Assembly: GCA_032128875.1 (NCBI GenBank)
Contig: JAVLKG010000003.1
Coordinates: 856,974-920,973, forward strand
Direction of reading: 5' to 3'
Source: Candidatus Melainabacteria bacterium 17Bon1m
Lineage (GTDB): Bacteria; Cyanobacteriota; Vampirovibrionia; Obscuribacterales; Obscuribacteraceae
Length of the DNA: 64,000 nucleotides
The stretch's first letter is position 1, and the number at the start of each line of letters is the position of its first letter. Below, piece by piece: positions 27,219-30,546 of this stretch. The position numbers and the translations under genes were made by a program. A model generated the notes under the pieces. The model saw only the letters and a list, made by a program, of their open reading frames with translations. It did no database searches and had not been told where the DNA came from.

Positions 27219-27620
27219 TTGGGTTACGTCCAGCGAGTGATCATCCTCAACAAGCCGCTTAAGGTGTTCGGTTTCGAACCCCGGCAGCTGATATTGCTAT
27301 CAGTTTGGGTTGTTTCCGGATTGATCATTGCCGGTCGCTTTCCTCAGGACTGGAAATTCCATAATTTCCCTATTGGCGTGTGGTTTTTCATCCTCTGGAT
27401 GTGCGGTGCCGTGGCTGTTGTTATGGGCACCCGACTGAAGCCCTTCTCTTGGTGGAAAAATATCCTCACGTACAGGTTGGGCTTGGCTCCTAATCTCTAT
27501 GTTTCACGCGCAGAACCCGCTCCGATCTATCCAGATGGGAATATAATTGAGGTTAAAAAAACTAAAGAAAACTTCTATGTCCAAGCTGAAAACACAACTG
27601 CAGACCCGGATGACTTCTAG
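27219..27620 (+). CDS. PrgI/VirB3-like two-TM protein
   Basis: AAGGAG RBS with TTG start; 'KPLKVFGFEPRQL' followed by two TM helices and 'KPFSWW...P.LYV'; directly upstream of the VirB4-like ATPase. Confidence 0.7.
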   Translation: MGYVQRVIILNKPLKVFGFEPRQLILLSVWVVSGLIIAGRFPQDWKFHNFPIGVWFFILWMCGAVAVVMGTRLKPFSWWKNILTYRLGLAPNLYVSRAEPAPIYPDGNIIEVKKTKENFYVQAENTTADPDDF

Positions 27621-27708
27621 AAGTCCGGTTTTTCAATTGGTCAGCGCCCAATCAAGTTCTTGAGACCGACCCGGCAGAACACCCAGGAAACCCGAGACAG
27701 GAAACCCA

Positions 27709-30546
27709 ATGGCACAAAGCTACGCTGCATCACGAGGAAGAAAACGCCCACCTCCGCCAGGAGGCGGTGGCGGTCGTGGCGGTCGTGGCGGCGATGGCGG
27801 TGGTTCCGGAACCGGGTCGAGAGGTCGCTATAGTGACTATGCGGATGACGACGGATTTGATGACGATATAAAGCCGCCATCAGTGAGAAGCGAAACGTCC
27901 GGTCGCGTTTTGCGCACGACTCCGCAGCCGTCCATTCAAAATGTTTTTGCCGGATTCTACAACTCGCTTCCCGGGGCGCTGCGCGAGATGCTGCCATTTG
28001 GCAGCGATGCGACTGAGCACGATTCGCATGACGACGACAGTCCACCCAAAGACTCGCGACCTGAATCGAGTTGGAAAGATGTTTGCTACCTTTACGCCAT
28101 CCCTGGAGACGACGAAGACGAAGGGCTGGTCGTGCTTGCCGACGGCAGCATGCGCAAATACATCAGCTGCAAAGGTATCAATGCCTTACTTTTCGACGAA
28201 GCCGATCGGGAGTCAATGGCTCGCCAATTCACGAATTTCGTCAACTCTTGCGAATCGGATATTCAAGTCATCATCAAATCGCGCAACTTGCCCGTCGATG
28301 AATATCTCTCTCGCTATCAGACTTTGATCAAGACGGACAACGATTACCTCAAGTGGTACGCGGACTACACCGATAAATGGTTCCGCCGCCAACAAGATGT
28401 CAGCTTCGTTCCTCAGCGCGAATTCTATATCGCTGTCAGTTTCCAGCCACCTGATTGCCGCGGCACAACGGGCTGGAGCGGCCGACGCTCGATTCAAAAA
28501 CACGAAGAGTATGTCGGTGTACTTGATCGTTATACGCGCACTGCATACGAGCAATTGCGTGTATCCATGCTGCGTCCTCAGGTTTTGAACAGAAGACAAG
28601 TTCGTAACTTGATTTATGCCGATCTCAATCCCAGCCTTTCCGAAAGAGATCACGAAGCGCCGCCTTCGCGTCCTGATATCTCGGAAGTCTCATCTTTAGC
28701 CGGTTCTGCTCTTAAGGTCTCCGATGAGCACATCTGGCTGGATGGCAAGTATATCGGCACTCAATATTTGGAACAGCTGCCGCACGAAACTTGGATGGGA
28801 TGGCTTGTAGACTTGCTTACGCTCTCTGTTGAGTACCAGCTATCGTTGTTTGTGCATTGCTGCAACCAGGATAAAGTACGTTCGGATTTGAAATGGAAGC
28901 ACCACTTCGGTCGTGTTACATCCACGCAGTTAGCCAGTCCCGATCTTGAAGGTATTGAAGAAACGCGTTCTGCTGCAACGGCTATTCAAGACTTCTTGCG
29001 TTCATCCAACAAAGCTTTCGATACGAGTTTGTACATAAGAGCGCTGGCAAACTCGCCTGAGCAGCTCGCTTCAAACATGGACGAAGTAAGGCGCGTGTTT
29101 AAAAACCGCGGTGCTTTGCTCGATCGCGCTCAAATGCTTCAACTCGATGCATGGCAATCGACACTTGTTGTCGGCGTTGACAAACTTGCGATCATTCACC
29201 GCATTATGTCGCCGGTTGTCGGAACCTTCTGGCCGTTTTTCACAGCTACATGCGGAACGCCCGACGGTGTGCCATTCGGCTTTGCAAGCGCATCCAGAGA
29301 ACCGGTGTTGCTCAACCCGTTCTTTAGAGGACAGGGTAAAGACGCGAACAATATGTTCGTTGTAGGAACCACCGGTGCTGGTAAATCATTCGCCGTGTCG
29401 ATGATGATCTTGCGCTTGTTGCCTTTGGGCACCAGGTTTGTGCTGATTGATAAAACCGTGGACAAAAACGGTGCCTATCGCTTCATCACGAAGCTCTTAG
29501 GACCGGAGATGTGCGCGTACGTCGATCTTGGTCCATCTTCCGGTTATATTTTGAATCCGTTTGACTTGGGTCCTGAAGATAAGCCCGGCGAGCCATCTGC
29601 CGACAAAGTTTCAACTCTGCTTTCGCTGCTCGACTTGATGTTGGCACCGGAAGGTCGAGAAGAAATGAACGTCGAAGAAAAATCACTGCTTGATGGTTTG
29701 ATTCGTGTTGCTTACATGGACGCGCAATTCCGTGAATCCGTACCGACGATGTCCGACCTGGCGCGTGTTACGGCGCAAGCGGCTGCAGATGAAGTCGACC
29801 CGTTGCAGCGCGATCGCTTGCAGATGTTTGCTCGTGGACTTTCACTCTTTACGAGATCCGGCGCATTTGGCGGACTTGTTGATGGCTACACTAATATCGA
29901 CACCGAAAAATTGTTCATCGTATTTGATACCAGAGAAGTCAACGAACCGAGACTGGAAAGAATCGCTGTGTATATGCTTGCTGAGTTCATCAGGCGTCGT
30001 GCAGCTGAGTGCAAATTGCGGCGTATCAGATTTGCGGCGGTTATCGACGAAGCTGCGACACTGATGCGATTCAAAGCCGGAGCGCGGCTTTTGGATGACC
30101 TTTCGAGAAGAGCCCGTCACTACGGTATGATGCTTGTTTCGATCACACAGCAGTTGAAGGACTTCTTCAAACAAGCTGAGCAAGCCGATTCCGTTGTGAA
30201 AAACTCACACATGAAGCTGATTTTGAGACAGGATGCTTCCGACCTCAAGATGCTGAAAGAGGCGCTGCGTCTCAGCGATGCTGAGATTGCTGCCATTGAA
30301 AATTTTTCCAAGGACGAGGAGAAGAGAAAGGATTCACAGCTCCTGCTCATTGTGGGATCTGTTCACGGAACGATTCGACTGGTGCCGAGCCCCATGGACT
30401 ACTGGATCTGCACTTCAGAACCGATCCGCGATATCCCGAGACGCGAAGAAATGATCAAGGAGGTAAAACTCAAGAATCCCAATTTGAGCGAAACCGACGC
30501 GTGCCGGCAATCCGTGTATTATCTAGGATTGCAACACGACGGTTGA
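27709..30546 (+). CDS. virB4: VirB4/TraC-family type IV secretion ATPase
   Basis: Walker A 'FVVGTTGAGKSF' (GTTGAGKS at 29365-29388), Walker B 'AAVIDEAA', 'RRARHYG..LVSITQ', 'LNPFD', 'PTMSDL', 'KLILRQ'; ~945 aa with an inactive N-terminal half. Confidence 0.85.
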   Translation: MAQSYAASRGRKRPPPPGGGGGRGGRGGDGGGSGTGSRGRYSDYADDDGFDDDIKPPSVRSETSGRVLRTTPQPSIQNVFAGFYNSLPGALREMLPFGSDATEHDSHDDDSPPKDSRPESSWKDVCYLYAIPGDDEDEGLVVLADGSMRKYISCKGINALLFDEADRESMARQFTNFVNSCESDIQVIIKSRNLPVDEYLSRYQTLIKTDNDYLKWYADYTDKWFRRQQDVSFVPQREFYIAVSFQPPDCRGTTGWSGRRSIQKHEEYVGVLDRYTRTAYEQLRVSMLRPQVLNRRQVRNLIYADLNPSLSERDHEAPPSRPDISEVSSLAGSALKVSDEHIWLDGKYIGTQYLEQLPHETWMGWLVDLLTLSVEYQLSLFVHCCNQDKVRSDLKWKHHFGRVTSTQLASPDLEGIEETRSAATAIQDFLRSSNKAFDTSLYIRALANSPEQLASNMDEVRRVFKNRGALLDRAQMLQLDAWQSTLVVGVDKLAIIHRIMSPVVGTFWPFFTATCGTPDGVPFGFASASREPVLLNPFFRGQGKDANNMFVVGTTGAGKSFAVSMMILRLLPLGTRFVLIDKTVDKNGAYRFITKLLGPEMCAYVDLGPSSGYILNPFDLGPEDKPGEPSADKVSTLLSLLDLMLAPEGREEMNVEEKSLLDGLIRVAYMDAQFRESVPTMSDLARVTAQAAADEVDPLQRDRLQMFARGLSLFTRSGAFGGLVDGYTNIDTEKLFIVFDTREVNEPRLERIAVYMLAEFIRRRAAECKLRRIRFAAVIDEAATLMRFKAGARLLDDLSRRARHYGMMLVSITQQLKDFFKQAEQADSVVKNSHMKLILRQDASDLKMLKEALRLSDAEIAAIENFSKDEEKRKDSQLLLIVGSVHGTIRLVPSPMDYWICTSEPIRDIPRREEMIKEVKLKNPNLSETDACRQSVYYLGLQHDG

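What the first reader, a model, noticed from the sequence alone, without database searches (positions are those of the whole stretch)
27219..30546. Monoderm/CPR-style PrgI plus VirB4 module in an apparently diderm host
Seen: a PrgI-like gene, then an ATPase whose N-half has 'GINALLFDEADRESMARQFTNFVNSCESDIQVIIKSRNLPVDEYL...REFYIAV'. From recall this resembles the TraC-like segment of PrgI-associated VirB4 systems of Gram-positives and Patescibacteria ('IN..L.S..E...I...F..FLNSL...IQI...SR.L....YL'). The window also encodes TonB-C and LolA-like proteins, implying an outer membrane. An unusual ~115-aa Gly/Arg/Asp-rich disordered N-terminus precedes the fold. Inference: a hybrid of a monoderm-type motor with novel outer-membrane parts.
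Basis: partly seen in the sequence, partly recalled or inferred. Interest (0 to 1): 0.7.

Follow-up and report, generated by a model that had tools for sequence, protein, structure and literature searches.

The report
Order-wide chromosomal monoderm-style type IV secretion
A divergent VirB4 motor and its small membrane partner sit in a ten-gene chromosomal operon that nearly every sampled member of a non-photosynthetic cyanobacterial order carries, and it looks like a Gram-positive-style type IV secretion core kept for some job other than plasmid transfer.

Summary
Window 27219-27620 encodes a 2-TM PrgI/VirB3-like protein. Window 27709-30546 encodes a 945-aa VirB4-like ATPase with intact Walker A and B motifs and a disordered N-terminus.

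Homologues carry Candidatus Obscuribacterales names, so the host is a non-photosynthetic cyanobacterium. It is diderm: Omp85 and a TonB C-terminal domain are present.

The two genes belong to a ten-gene plus-strand operon (14067-31635). It also encodes two extended VirB6/TrbL-like proteins, a VirB8-fold protein, a lipoprotein, two secreted Gly-rich proteins and a DUF2225 protein.

The ATPase was found in 100 of 101 sampled genomes of the order at 71-100% identity, and in 0 of 300 sampled genomes elsewhere in the phylum. Gene order is conserved and the flanks are housekeeping genes. No relaxase, coupling protein, integrase or tRNA lies in cis.

In trees the ATPase forms its own fully supported clade. 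AU tests reject joining it to MPF_C (p 0.008), MPF_F (0.012) or MPF_T (0.032), but not to monoderm references (0.165).

A second, equally conserved paralogous cluster elsewhere in the genome carries a VirD4-like protein.

Verdict: a lineage-specific, vertically inherited, monoderm-style type IV secretion-like system. Outer-membrane parts and function are not shown. Kinship with Patescibacteria was not tested.

The parts
14067..15041 (+). A324: secreted Gly-rich low-complexity protein. First gene of the operon. The true start is probably the internal Met before the signal peptide, near 14169.
   Evidence: Hydrophobic N-terminal segment at 33-51. Conserved short motifs (QLPPTNMGK.VH.PGDNQY, INQSTTQDLSLPDD) sit between Gly-rich linkers in 9 orthologues. 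Orthologue found in 8 of 8 loci. No Pfam, NCBIfam or PHROG hit.
15111..15797 (+). A228: secreted Gly-rich low-complexity protein.
   Evidence: N-terminal hydrophobic segment at 4-22. Conserved motifs YxAPRQxQIxDERP and LPKSGFG..NIPARG. Found in 8 of 8 loci. No family hit.
15834..17822 (+). A662: lipoprotein with a long helical hairpin and a C-terminal beta-sandwich (DUF4352-like). Candidate periplasmic or outer-membrane-proximal part.
   Evidence: Invariant Cys22 after a signal-like segment. AF2 mean pLDDT 60.7, with confident helices 354-433 and strands 568-659. Only generic matches: FlaG Z 9.0, B. subtilis YcdA Z 8.7, coiled coils. DUF4352 at 18.8 bits, under its cut-off of 25.9. Found in 8 of 8 loci.
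17827..20535 (+). A902: polytopic membrane protein, VirB6/TrbL-like (lead), with a Gly-rich C-terminal tail.
   Evidence: Six hydrophobic segments. Atlas look-alikes are TrbL_2/3/4/5 clusters at 0.87-0.91, and all ten best hits with a family share one family or clan. No TrbL Pfam hit even at E up to 1. Paralogue of A1772, 33% over 414 aa. Found in 7 of 8 loci.
20598..25916 (+). A1772: extended VirB6/TrbL-like protein with a ~1,200-aa repetitive C-terminal domain.
   Evidence: Shares the membrane domain with A902. Signal-like segment plus at least 3 TM segments. Best-hit lengths in other genomes range from 555 to 1995 aa. Found in 7 of 8 loci.
26142..27161 (+). DUF2225 protein (zinc-ribbon-like N-terminus, Pro/Ser-rich tail). 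No predicted TM segment, so presumably cytoplasmic.
   Evidence: PF09986 at 43.7 bits against a cut-off of 21. No hydrophobic segment. A DUF2225 gene also precedes the small gene and VirB4 in cluster B. Found in 5 of 8 loci.
27219..27620 (+). A133: 2-TM PrgI/VirB3-like protein directly upstream of VirB4.
   Evidence: Two TM segments. PrgI hit in 4 of 10 family members, best E 0.0049. hhalign against an enterococcal PrgI-family protein gives probability 22.7% on the shared FGxxxRQL motif; against R388 VirB3 it gives 0.6%. Complex prediction with VirB4 residues 120-520: weak support, 0.40 against a best control of 0.00. Found in 8 of 8 loci.
27709..30546 (+). A945: VirB4-like ATPase ('VirB4-A') with a disordered N-terminal tail.
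   Evidence: Pfam P-loop_TraG and AAA_10 over their cut-offs. Walker A GTTGAGKS at 553 and Walker B AAVIDEA at 776. Found in 100 of 101 genomes of the order. Own clade, 100*.
30626..31039 (+). A137: bitopic membrane protein of unknown fold.
   Evidence: One N-terminal TM segment. Found in 7 of 8 loci. No family hit. Not related to A198 by hhalign, probability 0.1%.
31039..31635 (+). A198: VirB8-like bitopic protein (N-terminal TM helix plus an NTF2-like domain).
   Evidence: AF2 pLDDT 83.0, pTM 0.68. Most of the top Foldseek PDB matches listed are VirB8-family chains: TraM 3wz3 E 3.8e-4, R388 arches chains in 7o41, TraE 5wio TMt 0.69, Brucella VirB8 2bhm TMt 0.70. Found in 7 of 8 loci.

Best explanation
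The finding is the VirB3-like/VirB4 pair at the centre of a ten-gene chromosomal operon (window 14067-31635). The operon encodes a minimised, monoderm-style type IV secretion-like apparatus in a diderm host, a member of Candidatus Obscuribacterales.

Shown:
- The ATPase is a catalytically intact VirB4-family protein.
- It is a near-universal, syntenic, strongly conserved gene of the order.
- It forms a VirB4 clade of its own that cannot be joined to the MPF_C, MPF_F or MPF_T references.
- One neighbour has a VirB8 fold.
- A deeply diverged paralogous cluster ('B') with a VirD4-like coupling protein is conserved to the same degree.

Inferred:
- A VirB4 hexamer docks through the 2-TM PrgI/VirB3-like protein onto an inner-membrane channel built from two extended VirB6/TrbL-like proteins and the VirB8-like protein.
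- The lipoprotein and the two secreted Gly-rich proteins serve in the periplasm or outer envelope in place of the missing VirB7/9/10 core.
- The machine has been taken over from conjugation for a resident, non-conjugative role. That role would be export or surface display of protein, or possibly DNA, for cell-cell or cell-environment interaction. This parallels what has been proposed for the chromosomal T4SS of Patescibacteria.
For: VirB4 identity:
- Pfam P-loop_TraG at 65.9 bits and AAA_10 at 41.5 bits, both over their cut-offs.
- NCBIfam ranks CD1110 (193.8), then TraC-F (186.7), then the Mycoplasma VirB4 model (159.2), then VirB4_CagE (141.2), all aligned over most of the protein.
- Walker A and B are intact.
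- The only PDB hit is 4AG5, Thermoanaerobacter VirB4, E 7.6e-14.

Core gene, not a mobile element:
- 100 of 101 sampled genomes of the order match, including 39 of 39 high-quality genomes and 35 of 35 genera. Full-length matches listed are 71-100% identical. The one miss is 64% complete.
- Only G000 itself matched among 301 genomes in the phylum-wide sample at E <= 1e-10.
- Operon order is kept in 8 diverse genomes: A324, A228, A662, A133 and VirB4 in 8 of 8; A902, A1772, A137 and A198 in 7 of 8; DUF2225 in 5 of 8.
- The divergent upstream genes, including RimM and a flavoprotein, are syntenic in 6 of 6 genomes.
- The flanks are housekeeping genes: riboflavin synthesis, LigA, thiolase.
- The window has 0 tRNA genes.
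- The operon has no relaxase, T4CP or integrase domains.

Phylogeny:
- The A clade has 100* support in FastTree (25 rows), the PMSF quick tree (12 rows) and the LG+G4 tree (6 rows).
- A 17-row group of A, B, two unlabelled clades and the monoderm references has 98* support. In the PMSF tree the A-containing group is sister to the monoderm references at 91.
- AU tests: A+MPF_C p 0.008; A+MPF_F p 0.012; A+MPF_T p 0.032; A+monoderm references p 0.165, not rejected.

Other components:
- A198 has a VirB8 fold.
- A902 has TrbL-like atlas look-alikes.
- A133 is weakly PrgI-like.
- Complex prediction of A133 with VirB4 residues 120-520 gave weak support: score 0.40, best of 3 controls 0.00. The three runs agree in at least 87% of contacts and the partner's pLDDT is at least 65. 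The pass mark was reached by 116 of 157 solved complexes and 2 of 215 mismatched pairs. At 0.60 or under it was reached by only 18 of those 157 solved complexes and by both mismatches. VirB3-VirB4 complexes are solved, so the pass may reflect likeness only.

Diderm host: Omp85 at 132.7 bits and a TonB_C protein.

Cluster B: VirB4-B was found in 94 of 101 genomes, 38 of 39 high-quality, at E <= 1e-150. Its locus holds DUF2225, a small TM protein, VirB4, a VirD4-like protein and three VirB6-like paralogues.

Analogy: Patescibacteria carry a chromosomal, relaxase-less T4SS allied to MPF_FATA (PMC12102498; abstract and passages read).
Against: - No function is shown.
- There is no transcription evidence. 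The 'RNA' runs that hold the locus do so as 53-kb contigs, which could be DNA.
- The VirB6 assignment rests on language-model look-alikes at 0.87-0.91, a lead only. Pfam finds no TrbL family even at E up to 1.
- The PrgI assignment is weak. The window's own protein has 0 Pfam hits and hhalign gives 22.7%.
- The ATPase fails every NCBIfam curated cut-off.
- No VirB1-like hydrolase was found in the operon. No VirB10 over its cut-off was found in the genome. VirB2, VirB7 and VirB9 were not searched for specifically. How an outer membrane would be crossed is therefore unexplained.
- The genome holds two relaxase (PF03432) plus T4CP modules on contigs C17 and C27 with no VirB4 beside them. Those modules could use cluster A or B in trans, so a role in DNA transfer is not excluded.
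- The trees use single references for MPF_T, MPF_C and MPF_I. They have no MPF_B, MPF_G, MPF_FA (Tn916-type) or Patescibacteria sequences.
- The AU tests used LG+G4 without the mixture model. The mixture-model test did not finish.
- FastTree joined cluster B to the MPF_C reference. The better model did not recover that join, and the AU test rejected it.
Confidence: 0.6

Rival explanations
1. A resident mating-pair-formation machine that still moves DNA. Clusters A and/or B would act as chromosomally fixed T4SSs that serve relaxase-plus-coupling-protein modules encoded elsewhere (mobilisation in trans), or they would release or take up DNA.
For: The genome has two PF03432 relaxase genes, each next to a strong T4CP: C17 (36.6 and 159.1 bits) and C27 (29.9 and 187.1 bits). 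The only VirB4-like loci in the genome are A and B. Cluster B carries its own VirD4-like protein at 69.5 bits. The nearest named relatives of VirB4-A are conjugative ATPases.
Against: Cluster A has no T4CP or relaxase in cis. Both clusters are order-wide, syntenic and under strong constraint, unlike typical conjugative elements. C17 (78.9 kb) and C27 (14.6 kb) are small contigs in a genome bin with 4.5% contamination, so they may not belong to this organism. No MOBV relaxase was found.
Confidence: 0.2
2. A decayed remnant of an ancient integrated conjugative element that no longer forms a working machine.
For: Several canonical parts were not found in cis: relaxase, T4CP, VirB1, VirB10 and VirB11. 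Every NCBIfam score is under its cut-off. Other Obscuribacterales genomes carry ~690-aa paralogues that lack a Walker A motif.
Against: VirB4-A is 71-100% identical across the order, with open full-length frames in nearly all genomes. Walker A and B are intact. Ten genes keep their order in diverse genera. A remnant would not be held at this level of constraint in 100 of 101 genomes.
Confidence: 0.05
3. A member of the cyanobacterial MPF_C class that diverged in the non-photosynthetic branch.
For: The host belongs to the cyanobacterial phylum. FastTree joined the paralogue VirB4-B to the MPF_C reference alr7206 at 100*. BLASTP of B against alr7206 aligns full length, at 40.8 bits.
Against: BLASTP of A against alr7206 gives only 28.9 bits. 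AU tests reject A+MPF_C (p 0.008) and B+MPF_C (p 0.012). With the mixture model alr7206 sits with the long T and I branches, not with A or B. No accessory protein of cluster A or B matches the Nostoc operon below E 0.01. MPF_C has VirB9 and VirB10 homologues (PMC4027160, passages read). None over its cut-off was found here.
Confidence: 0.07

Closest known systems
Chromosomal T4SS of Patescibacteria/CPR (PMC12102498; abstract and passages read)
   Same: Both are chromosomal and lineage-wide. Both have a distinct VirB4 clade allied with monoderm classes, a PrgI/VirB3-like gene next to virB4, VirB6- and VirB8-like parts and no relaxase. A non-conjugative role is proposed for both.
   Different: The host here is a large-genome (7.55 Mb) diderm with Omp85, not an ultrasmall monoderm epibiont. 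No VirB2-like pilins or VirB1-like hydrolase were recognised in the operon. There are two extended VirB6 paralogues and a second paralogous cluster. Direct kinship of the two VirB4 clades was not tested, because no Patescibacteria sequences were available.
MPF_FATA conjugation systems of monoderms (pCF10 Prg/Pcf, CTn2, pGO1/pSK41; PMC4027160, passages read)
   Same: The best NCBIfam model is the CD1110 family. There is a PrgI-like small protein upstream, a TrbL/PrgH-like polytopic protein, a VirB8-fold protein and no VirB7/9/10. The AU test does not reject a common clade (p 0.165).
   Different: The CD1110 score is below its cut-off (193.8 against 325). There is no relaxase, T4CP, VirB1-like hydrolase or adhesin in cis. 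The locus is not on a mobile element. The host has an outer membrane. The A clade is separate (100*) from the monoderm reference clade (100*).
Rickettsiales vir homolog (rvh) T4SS (PMC2653234 and PMC7648143; abstracts in search listings only)
   Same: Both are chromosomal, conserved across a lineage and non-conjugative. Both have duplicated VirB6 paralogues with very large extensions.
   Different: rvh is an MPF_T-type system with VirB9/10/11 and VirD4, by my recollection of the field. The ATPase here is not MPF_T-like (AU p 0.032 against TrwK).
MPF_C of Nostoc sp. PCC 7120 plasmid pCC7120alpha (alr7206 region; NC_003276)
   Same: Same phylum. The virB4 gene is preceded by a small ORF.
   Different: MPF_C is plasmid-borne with a MobV relaxase, VirD4 and TrbI/VirB10 in the locus. 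Its VirB4 is only remotely similar, and a common clade is rejected.

Membership tests
VirB4 family (T4SS ATPase) | C-terminal P-loop NTPase domain with Walker A and Walker B | tested here: met
   P-loop_TraG at 65.9 bits (cut-off 25.8) and AAA_10 at 41.5 bits (cut-off 27.5). GTTGAGKS at 553 and AAVIDEA at 776. 4AG5 VirB4 C-domain E 7.6e-14.
VirB4 family (T4SS ATPase) | VirB4/TraC-type N-terminal domain | tested here: inconclusive
   TraC_F_IV aligns over residues 136-485 (profile 12-370 of 375) but scores 25.7 against a cut-off of 28.1. NCBIfam models align from about residue 137.
VirB4 family (T4SS ATPase) | Curated NCBIfam cut-off for a named VirB4 subfamily | tested here: not met
   CD1110 193.8 against 325; TraC-F 186.7 against 567; VirB4_plasma 159.2 against 590; VirB4_CagE 141.2 against 643.1. 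It is a family member at superfamily level but belongs to no curated subfamily.
MPF_C (cyanobacterial T4SS class) | VirB4 groups with the MPF_C clade | tested here: not met
   AU test of the A clade plus alr7206 gives p 0.008 and delta lnL 28.3. Only one MPF_C reference was used.
MPF_C (cyanobacterial T4SS class) | MPF_C-specific accessory proteins, including VirB9 and VirB10 homologues, in the locus | tested here: inconclusive
   BLASTP of all cluster A and B proteins against the Nostoc operon found no accessory match below E 0.01. No TrbI hit over its cut-off in the genome. The eight MPF_C profiles themselves were not available.
MPF_FATA (monoderm T4SS class) | VirB4 inside the MPF_FATA clade | tested here: inconclusive
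   The A clade is separate (100*) but sister-grouped with monoderm references at 91 (PMSF) and within a 98* group (LG+G4). The AU test does not reject a join, p 0.165.
MPF_FATA (monoderm T4SS class) | PrgI-type VirB3 homologue next to virB4 | tested here: inconclusive
   PrgI Pfam hit in 4 of 10 family members, best E 0.0049, and 0 hits for the window's own copy. hhalign probability 22.7%. Complex prediction gave weak support, 0.40 against a best control of 0.00.
MPF_FATA (monoderm T4SS class) | PrgH/TrbL-type VirB6 homologue | tested here: inconclusive
   Atlas look-alikes are TrbL_2/3/4/5 at 0.87-0.91. No Pfam TrbL hit at E up to 1 in 9 members.
MPF_FATA (monoderm T4SS class) | VirB8-like (PrgL/TraM-type) protein | tested here: met
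   A198 model has pLDDT 83. The top Foldseek matches listed are mostly VirB8-family chains.
MPF_FATA (monoderm T4SS class) | VirB1-like cell-wall hydrolase, T4CP and relaxase in the same element; monoderm host | tested here: not met
   No such domains in the ten operon proteins. The host has Omp85.
MPF_T and MPF_F | VirB4 groups with TrwK (T) or TraC (F) | tested here: not met
   AU tests: A+T p 0.032; A+F p 0.012. One T reference and three F references were used.
Patescibacteria T4SS clade | VirB4 inside the Patescibacteria clade | not tested
   No named Patescibacteria VirB4 sequence could be obtained.
Integrative/conjugative element | Relaxase, coupling protein, integrase, variable presence, insertion at tRNA or att sites | tested here: not met
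   None in cis. 0 tRNA genes in the window. Present in 100 of 101 genomes with conserved flanks.

The most novel reading that the evidence does not exclude
Obscuribacterales carry a previously undescribed class of type IV secretion-like machine, present as two ancient paralogous sets (A and B). It has a monoderm-type inner-membrane core with no VirB7/9/10 homologues. It crosses a diderm envelope using lineage-specific parts: a lipoprotein with a coiled-coil hairpin, secreted Gly-rich proteins, and giant VirB6 C-terminal domains. It is a core cellular apparatus, for example for contact-dependent interaction with other cells, in a group whose sister order includes a predator. The B-encoded VirD4-like protein may feed substrates to it.
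Probability: 0.3. Interest if true: 0.8.

Novelty: new variant of a known kind. Interest (0 to 1): 0.62.

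Why it matters
T4SS classes have been defined mainly from mobile elements and from pathogens. A monoderm-style T4SS core fixed as a near-universal chromosomal operon, in two ancient paralogous copies, across an order of free-living diderm bacteria would be a second case after Patescibacteria of a lineage taking over the conjugation motor as resident cell machinery.

It also asks how such a core spans an outer membrane without VirB7/9/10, and it gives a concrete set of candidate proteins to test.

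I found no paper linking Obscuribacterales and VirB4: 0 papers. One search returned 10 Melainabacteria papers. The one I read with a T4SS analysis describes MPF_T systems of Vampirovibrio. The 2025 Patescibacteria paper and the 2025 T4SS review mention neither Cyanobacteria nor Melainabacteria in their main text. Supplements were not read.

Tried and rejected
Names for representative proteins were therefore sought with the search for homologous proteins. One search gave no names, so the taxa of the two unlabelled sister clades (P0151/163/202/264 and P0160/170/173 and relatives) are unknown.
- The search for related loci on genome contigs first failed for lack of a conserved stretch. With a narrower alignment it returned one irrelevant Ruegeria locus.
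- The AU test under the PMSF mixture model did not finish in three runs. I used LG+G4 on 25 rows instead.
- Profile searches of the A902, A662 and A198 families against PDB sequences gave only low-complexity or chance hits.
- Pfam at relaxed E found no TrbL family in the A902 family.
- hhalign found no relation of A133 to R388 VirB3 (0.6%) or of A198 to A137 (0.1%).
- A662 fold searches gave only generic beta-sandwich and coiled-coil matches.
- Expression: three runs labelled RNA hold the whole stretch, but as 53-kb contigs from the same sample as the probable source DNA. This is no evidence of transcription.
- The weak TrbI-like protein at 7912-9069(-) was considered as the missing VirB10. 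It scores 20.8-21.5 bits, under the cut-off of 35, and the atlas score is 0.85. Its adjacency is shared with housekeeping genes in a generally syntenic region, so linkage is not shown.
- PHROGs gave only a weak terminase-like P-loop match for the ATPase.
- The search of earlier findings returned nothing.

Full report
**What is at the coordinates.**
ORF 27219-27620(+) encodes a 133-aa protein with two hydrophobic segments. The large protein passes the Pfam cut-offs for P-loop_TraG (65.9 bits) and AAA_10 (41.5 bits). It aligns over residues 136-485 to TraC_F_IV just under that cut-off, 25.7 against 28.1.

NCBIfam aligns four VirB4-type models over most of its length, all far below their curated cut-offs: CD1110 family 193.8, TraC-F 186.7, Mycoplasma VirB4 159.2, VirB4_CagE 141.2. 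Walker A (GTTGAGKS, residue 553) and Walker B (AAVIDEA, residue 776) are intact. The only solved structure found by sequence is the VirB4 C-domain of Thermoanaerobacter, 4AG5, E 7.6e-14.

The first ~119 residues are Gly/Arg/Asp/Ser/Pro-rich. In nine orthologues this tail is 60-143 aa long and varies in composition. It carries a conserved motif, AGFYNxLPxxLRxMLPFG followed by PPxDKRG.

**Host.**
The closest homologues (76-100% identity over 120 clusters listed) are named Candidatus Obscuribacterales, Obscuribacter or Melainabacteria wherever a source gives an organism name. The genome is 7.55 Mb in 35 contigs, 93% complete with 4.5% contamination. It encodes an Omp85/BamA protein at 132.7 bits, and the window holds a TonB_2/TonB_C protein. 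A diderm envelope is therefore supported. I found no LolA family among the 49 window ORFs scanned.

**A core gene, not a mobile one.**
- In a sample of 101 genomes of the order, 100 have a match, including 39 of 39 high-quality genomes and 35 of 35 genera. Full-length matches listed are 71-100% identical. The single miss is 64% complete.
- In a sample of 301 genomes across the phylum, only G000 itself matched at E <= 1e-10.
- The gene lies in a plus-strand operon of ten ORFs (14067-31635). In eight diverse genomes the same order is found: A324, A228, A662, A133 and VirB4 in 8 of 8; A902, A1772, A137 and A198 in 7 of 8; DUF2225 in 5 of 8.
- VirB4 is 72-80% identical in these loci, while most alignments of its neighbours are only about 28-62% identical.
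- The divergent upstream genes (two TPR proteins, two small proteins, a weak TrbI-like protein, a flavoprotein, RimM) are syntenic in 6 of 6 genomes.
- Downstream lie a DeoR regulator, a HAD hydrolase, riboflavin genes, a thiolase and LigA.
- The window has no tRNA gene. The operon has no relaxase, coupling-protein or integrase domain.

**The neighbours.**
- A902 and A1772 are paralogues, 33% identical over 414 aa, with several hydrophobic segments each. The membrane part of A902 has language-model look-alikes in TrbL_2/3/4/5 clusters, mostly from Bacillota, at 0.87-0.91. This is a lead only, and Pfam finds no TrbL family at E up to 1.
- A1772 has a long repetitive C-terminal domain. Its best matches in other genomes range from 555 to 1995 aa.
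- A198 folds with pLDDT 83 into an N-terminal helix plus an NTF2-like domain. Its top Foldseek matches listed are mostly VirB8-family chains: TraM 3wz3, the R388 arches chains in 7o41, TraE 5wio at TMt 0.69, and Brucella VirB8 2bhm at TMt 0.70.
- In the A133 family, PrgI is the only Pfam family hit by more than one member, in 4 of 10 with best E 0.0049. hhalign to an enterococcal PrgI-family protein aligns the shared FGxxxRQL motif at 22.7% probability, against 0.6% for R388 VirB3.
- A complex prediction of A133 with VirB4 residues 120-520 gave weak support: score 0.40, best control 0.00. The runs agree in at least 87% of contacts and the partner's pLDDT is at least 65. The mark was reached by 116 of 157 solved complexes and 2 of 215 mismatches. 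At 0.60 or under it was reached by only 18 of the 157 solved complexes and by both mismatches. VirB3-VirB4 complexes are solved, so this may only reflect likeness.
- A662 is a lipoprotein with an invariant Cys22. It has a confident helical hairpin and a C-terminal beta-sandwich that match only generic folds.
- A324 and A228 have signal-like N-termini and short conserved motifs between Gly-rich linkers.
- The DUF2225 protein has no hydrophobic segment.
- No VirB10 over its cut-off exists in the genome. No VirB1-like hydrolase or VirB11-like domain was seen in the operon. VirB2, VirB7 and VirB9 were not searched for specifically.

**A second cluster.**
The genome has exactly two VirB4-like loci. 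The second ('B', contig C1) is 25% identical to A by BLASTP. It has the same local layout: DUF2225, a small TM protein, VirB4. It also has a 983-aa VirD4-like protein and three VirB6-like paralogues. VirB4-B was found in 94 of 101 genomes, 38 of 39 high-quality, at E <= 1e-150 and 65-100% identity. Both sets therefore predate the radiation of the order.

**Phylogeny.**
I combined the following rows:
- the best 50%-identity representatives of a search over 1.84 billion proteins;
- three A orthologues and VirB4-B;
- named references fetched from plasmid records: three F-type TraC, R388 TrwK (T), R64 TraU (I) and Nostoc alr7206 (C);
- monoderm references: an E. faecium CD1110-family VirB4 preceded by a PrgI-family gene, S. 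aureus TraE and a B. cereus protein;
- VirB4-like genes from a haloarchaeal, a Thermus and a Myxococcus plasmid.

By the definitions in PMC4027160 (passages read), the PrgI-associated and pGO1-type references are MPF_FATA. I had no Tn916-type MPF_FA, MPF_B, MPF_G or Patescibacteria sequence.

Results:
- The A clade is fully supported in FastTree (25 rows), the PMSF quick tree (12 rows) and the LG+G4 tree (6 rows).
- Besides the orthologues, the A clade holds shorter paralogues of ~690 aa. Those that carry a name are also named Obscuribacterales. They lack a Walker A motif and are absent from this genome.
- In the PMSF tree the A clade sits in a group with B and two unlabelled clades (support 90). 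That group is sister to the monoderm references (91). F-type, Thermus and Myxococcus sequences lie apart (92), and the C, T and I references are long branches near the midpoint.
- In the LG+G4 tree a 17-row group of A, B, the unlabelled clades and the monoderm references has 98* support.
- AU tests under LG+G4: A+C p 0.008; A+F p 0.012; A+T p 0.032; B+C p 0.012; A+monoderm references p 0.165, not rejected.
- FastTree's join of B with alr7206 was not recovered under the mixture model.
- BLASTP of A against alr7206 gives 28.9 bits. No accessory protein of A or B matches the Nostoc MPF_C operon below E 0.01.

**Interpretation.**
The affinity with monoderm-type systems is supported as far as my references reach.

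The best reading is a resident T4SS-like machine with a VirB3/VirB4/VirB6/VirB8-type inner-membrane core that has been taken over for a non-conjugative role. It is analogous to the relaxase-less chromosomal T4SS of Patescibacteria (PMC12102498; abstract and passages read).

The outer-membrane question is open. The lipoprotein, the two secreted Gly-rich proteins and the giant VirB6 tails are candidates only.

A DNA-transfer role is not excluded. Two relaxase-plus-T4CP modules lie on contigs C17 and C27 with no VirB4 of their own, though these small contigs may be contamination.

No expression evidence was obtained. The 'RNA' runs hold the locus as 53-kb contigs.

**Literature.**
- No paper in the held library contains both 'Obscuribacterales' and 'VirB4'.
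- Of the papers with 'Melainabacteria' and 'type IV secretion' (10 held, 9 listed), I read passages of two. One describes T-type, partly plasmid-borne systems of Vampirovibrio chlorellavorus (PMC4451040). The other screens cyanobacterial plasmids for MPF_C genes (PMC8600333).
- The 2025 T4SS review (PMC12857230) and the Patescibacteria paper mention neither Cyanobacteria nor Melainabacteria in their main text. Supplements were not read.

Noticed in passing
G000 contig C1, about 790,800-814,000 (loci L023, L024): Paralogous T4SS-like cluster B. It holds five small proteins each with a TM segment, a 1,688-aa VirB6-like protein, DUF2225, a 112-aa TM protein, VirB4-B (939 aa), a 219-aa protein, a 983-aa VirD4-like protein, and two more VirB6-like genes on the opposite strand. 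VirB4-B was found in 94 of 101 genomes of the order.
   Followed up: partly
Proteins P0138, P0142, P0147, P0150, P0159 and others (from other Obscuribacterales genomes): A third paralogue family inside the A clade. These are ~650-700 aa VirB4-like proteins with no Walker A motif and no P-loop Pfam hit on record. They are absent from this genome. They may be pseudo-ATPases.
   Followed up: partly
G000 contigs C17 (about 68,700-72,900) and C27 (about 5,000-8,400): Two modules of a PF03432 relaxase next to a strong T4SS coupling protein, on small contigs of 78.9 kb and 14.6 kb. No VirB4-like gene is detected anywhere except in clusters A and B. They could be mobilisable elements or bin contamination.
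   Followed up: partly
window 7912-9069 (-): A 385-aa protein with a sub-threshold TrbI/VirB10-like match that covers most of the profile (20.8 bits, cut-off 35). Atlas look-alikes among Acidobacteriota TrbI-like proteins score 0.85. It is syntenic with the operon region in 6 of 6 genomes, together with housekeeping genes.
   Followed up: partly
window 27709-28070 (VirB4 residues 1-120): Within the otherwise variable disordered tail, a short motif (AGFYNxLPxxLRxMLPFG ... PPxDKRG) is recognisable, complete or degenerate, in the nine orthologues aligned. It may be a docking or membrane-binding element.
   Followed up: no
window 22000-25900 (C-terminal two thirds of A1772): A long run of degenerate repeats rich in G, V, Y/W and D, in a region of raised G+C (0.58-0.61 against about 0.50 nearby). 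The protein's best matches in other genomes range from 555 to 1995 aa.
   Followed up: no
window 13000-32900, runs X2-X4: Three libraries labelled transcriptomic RNA-Seq contain 53-kb contigs that span the whole region. This points to DNA in those libraries rather than to transcripts.
   Followed up: yes
window 53536-56818 (+): Two tandem paralogous genes that each combine DUF4388 with a GGDEF domain.
   Followed up: no
window 4597-6069 (-) and 62902-63984 (-): Two Glyco_transf_20 (trehalose-6-phosphate synthase family) genes lie in the same window. The second runs off the end of the window.
   Followed up: no
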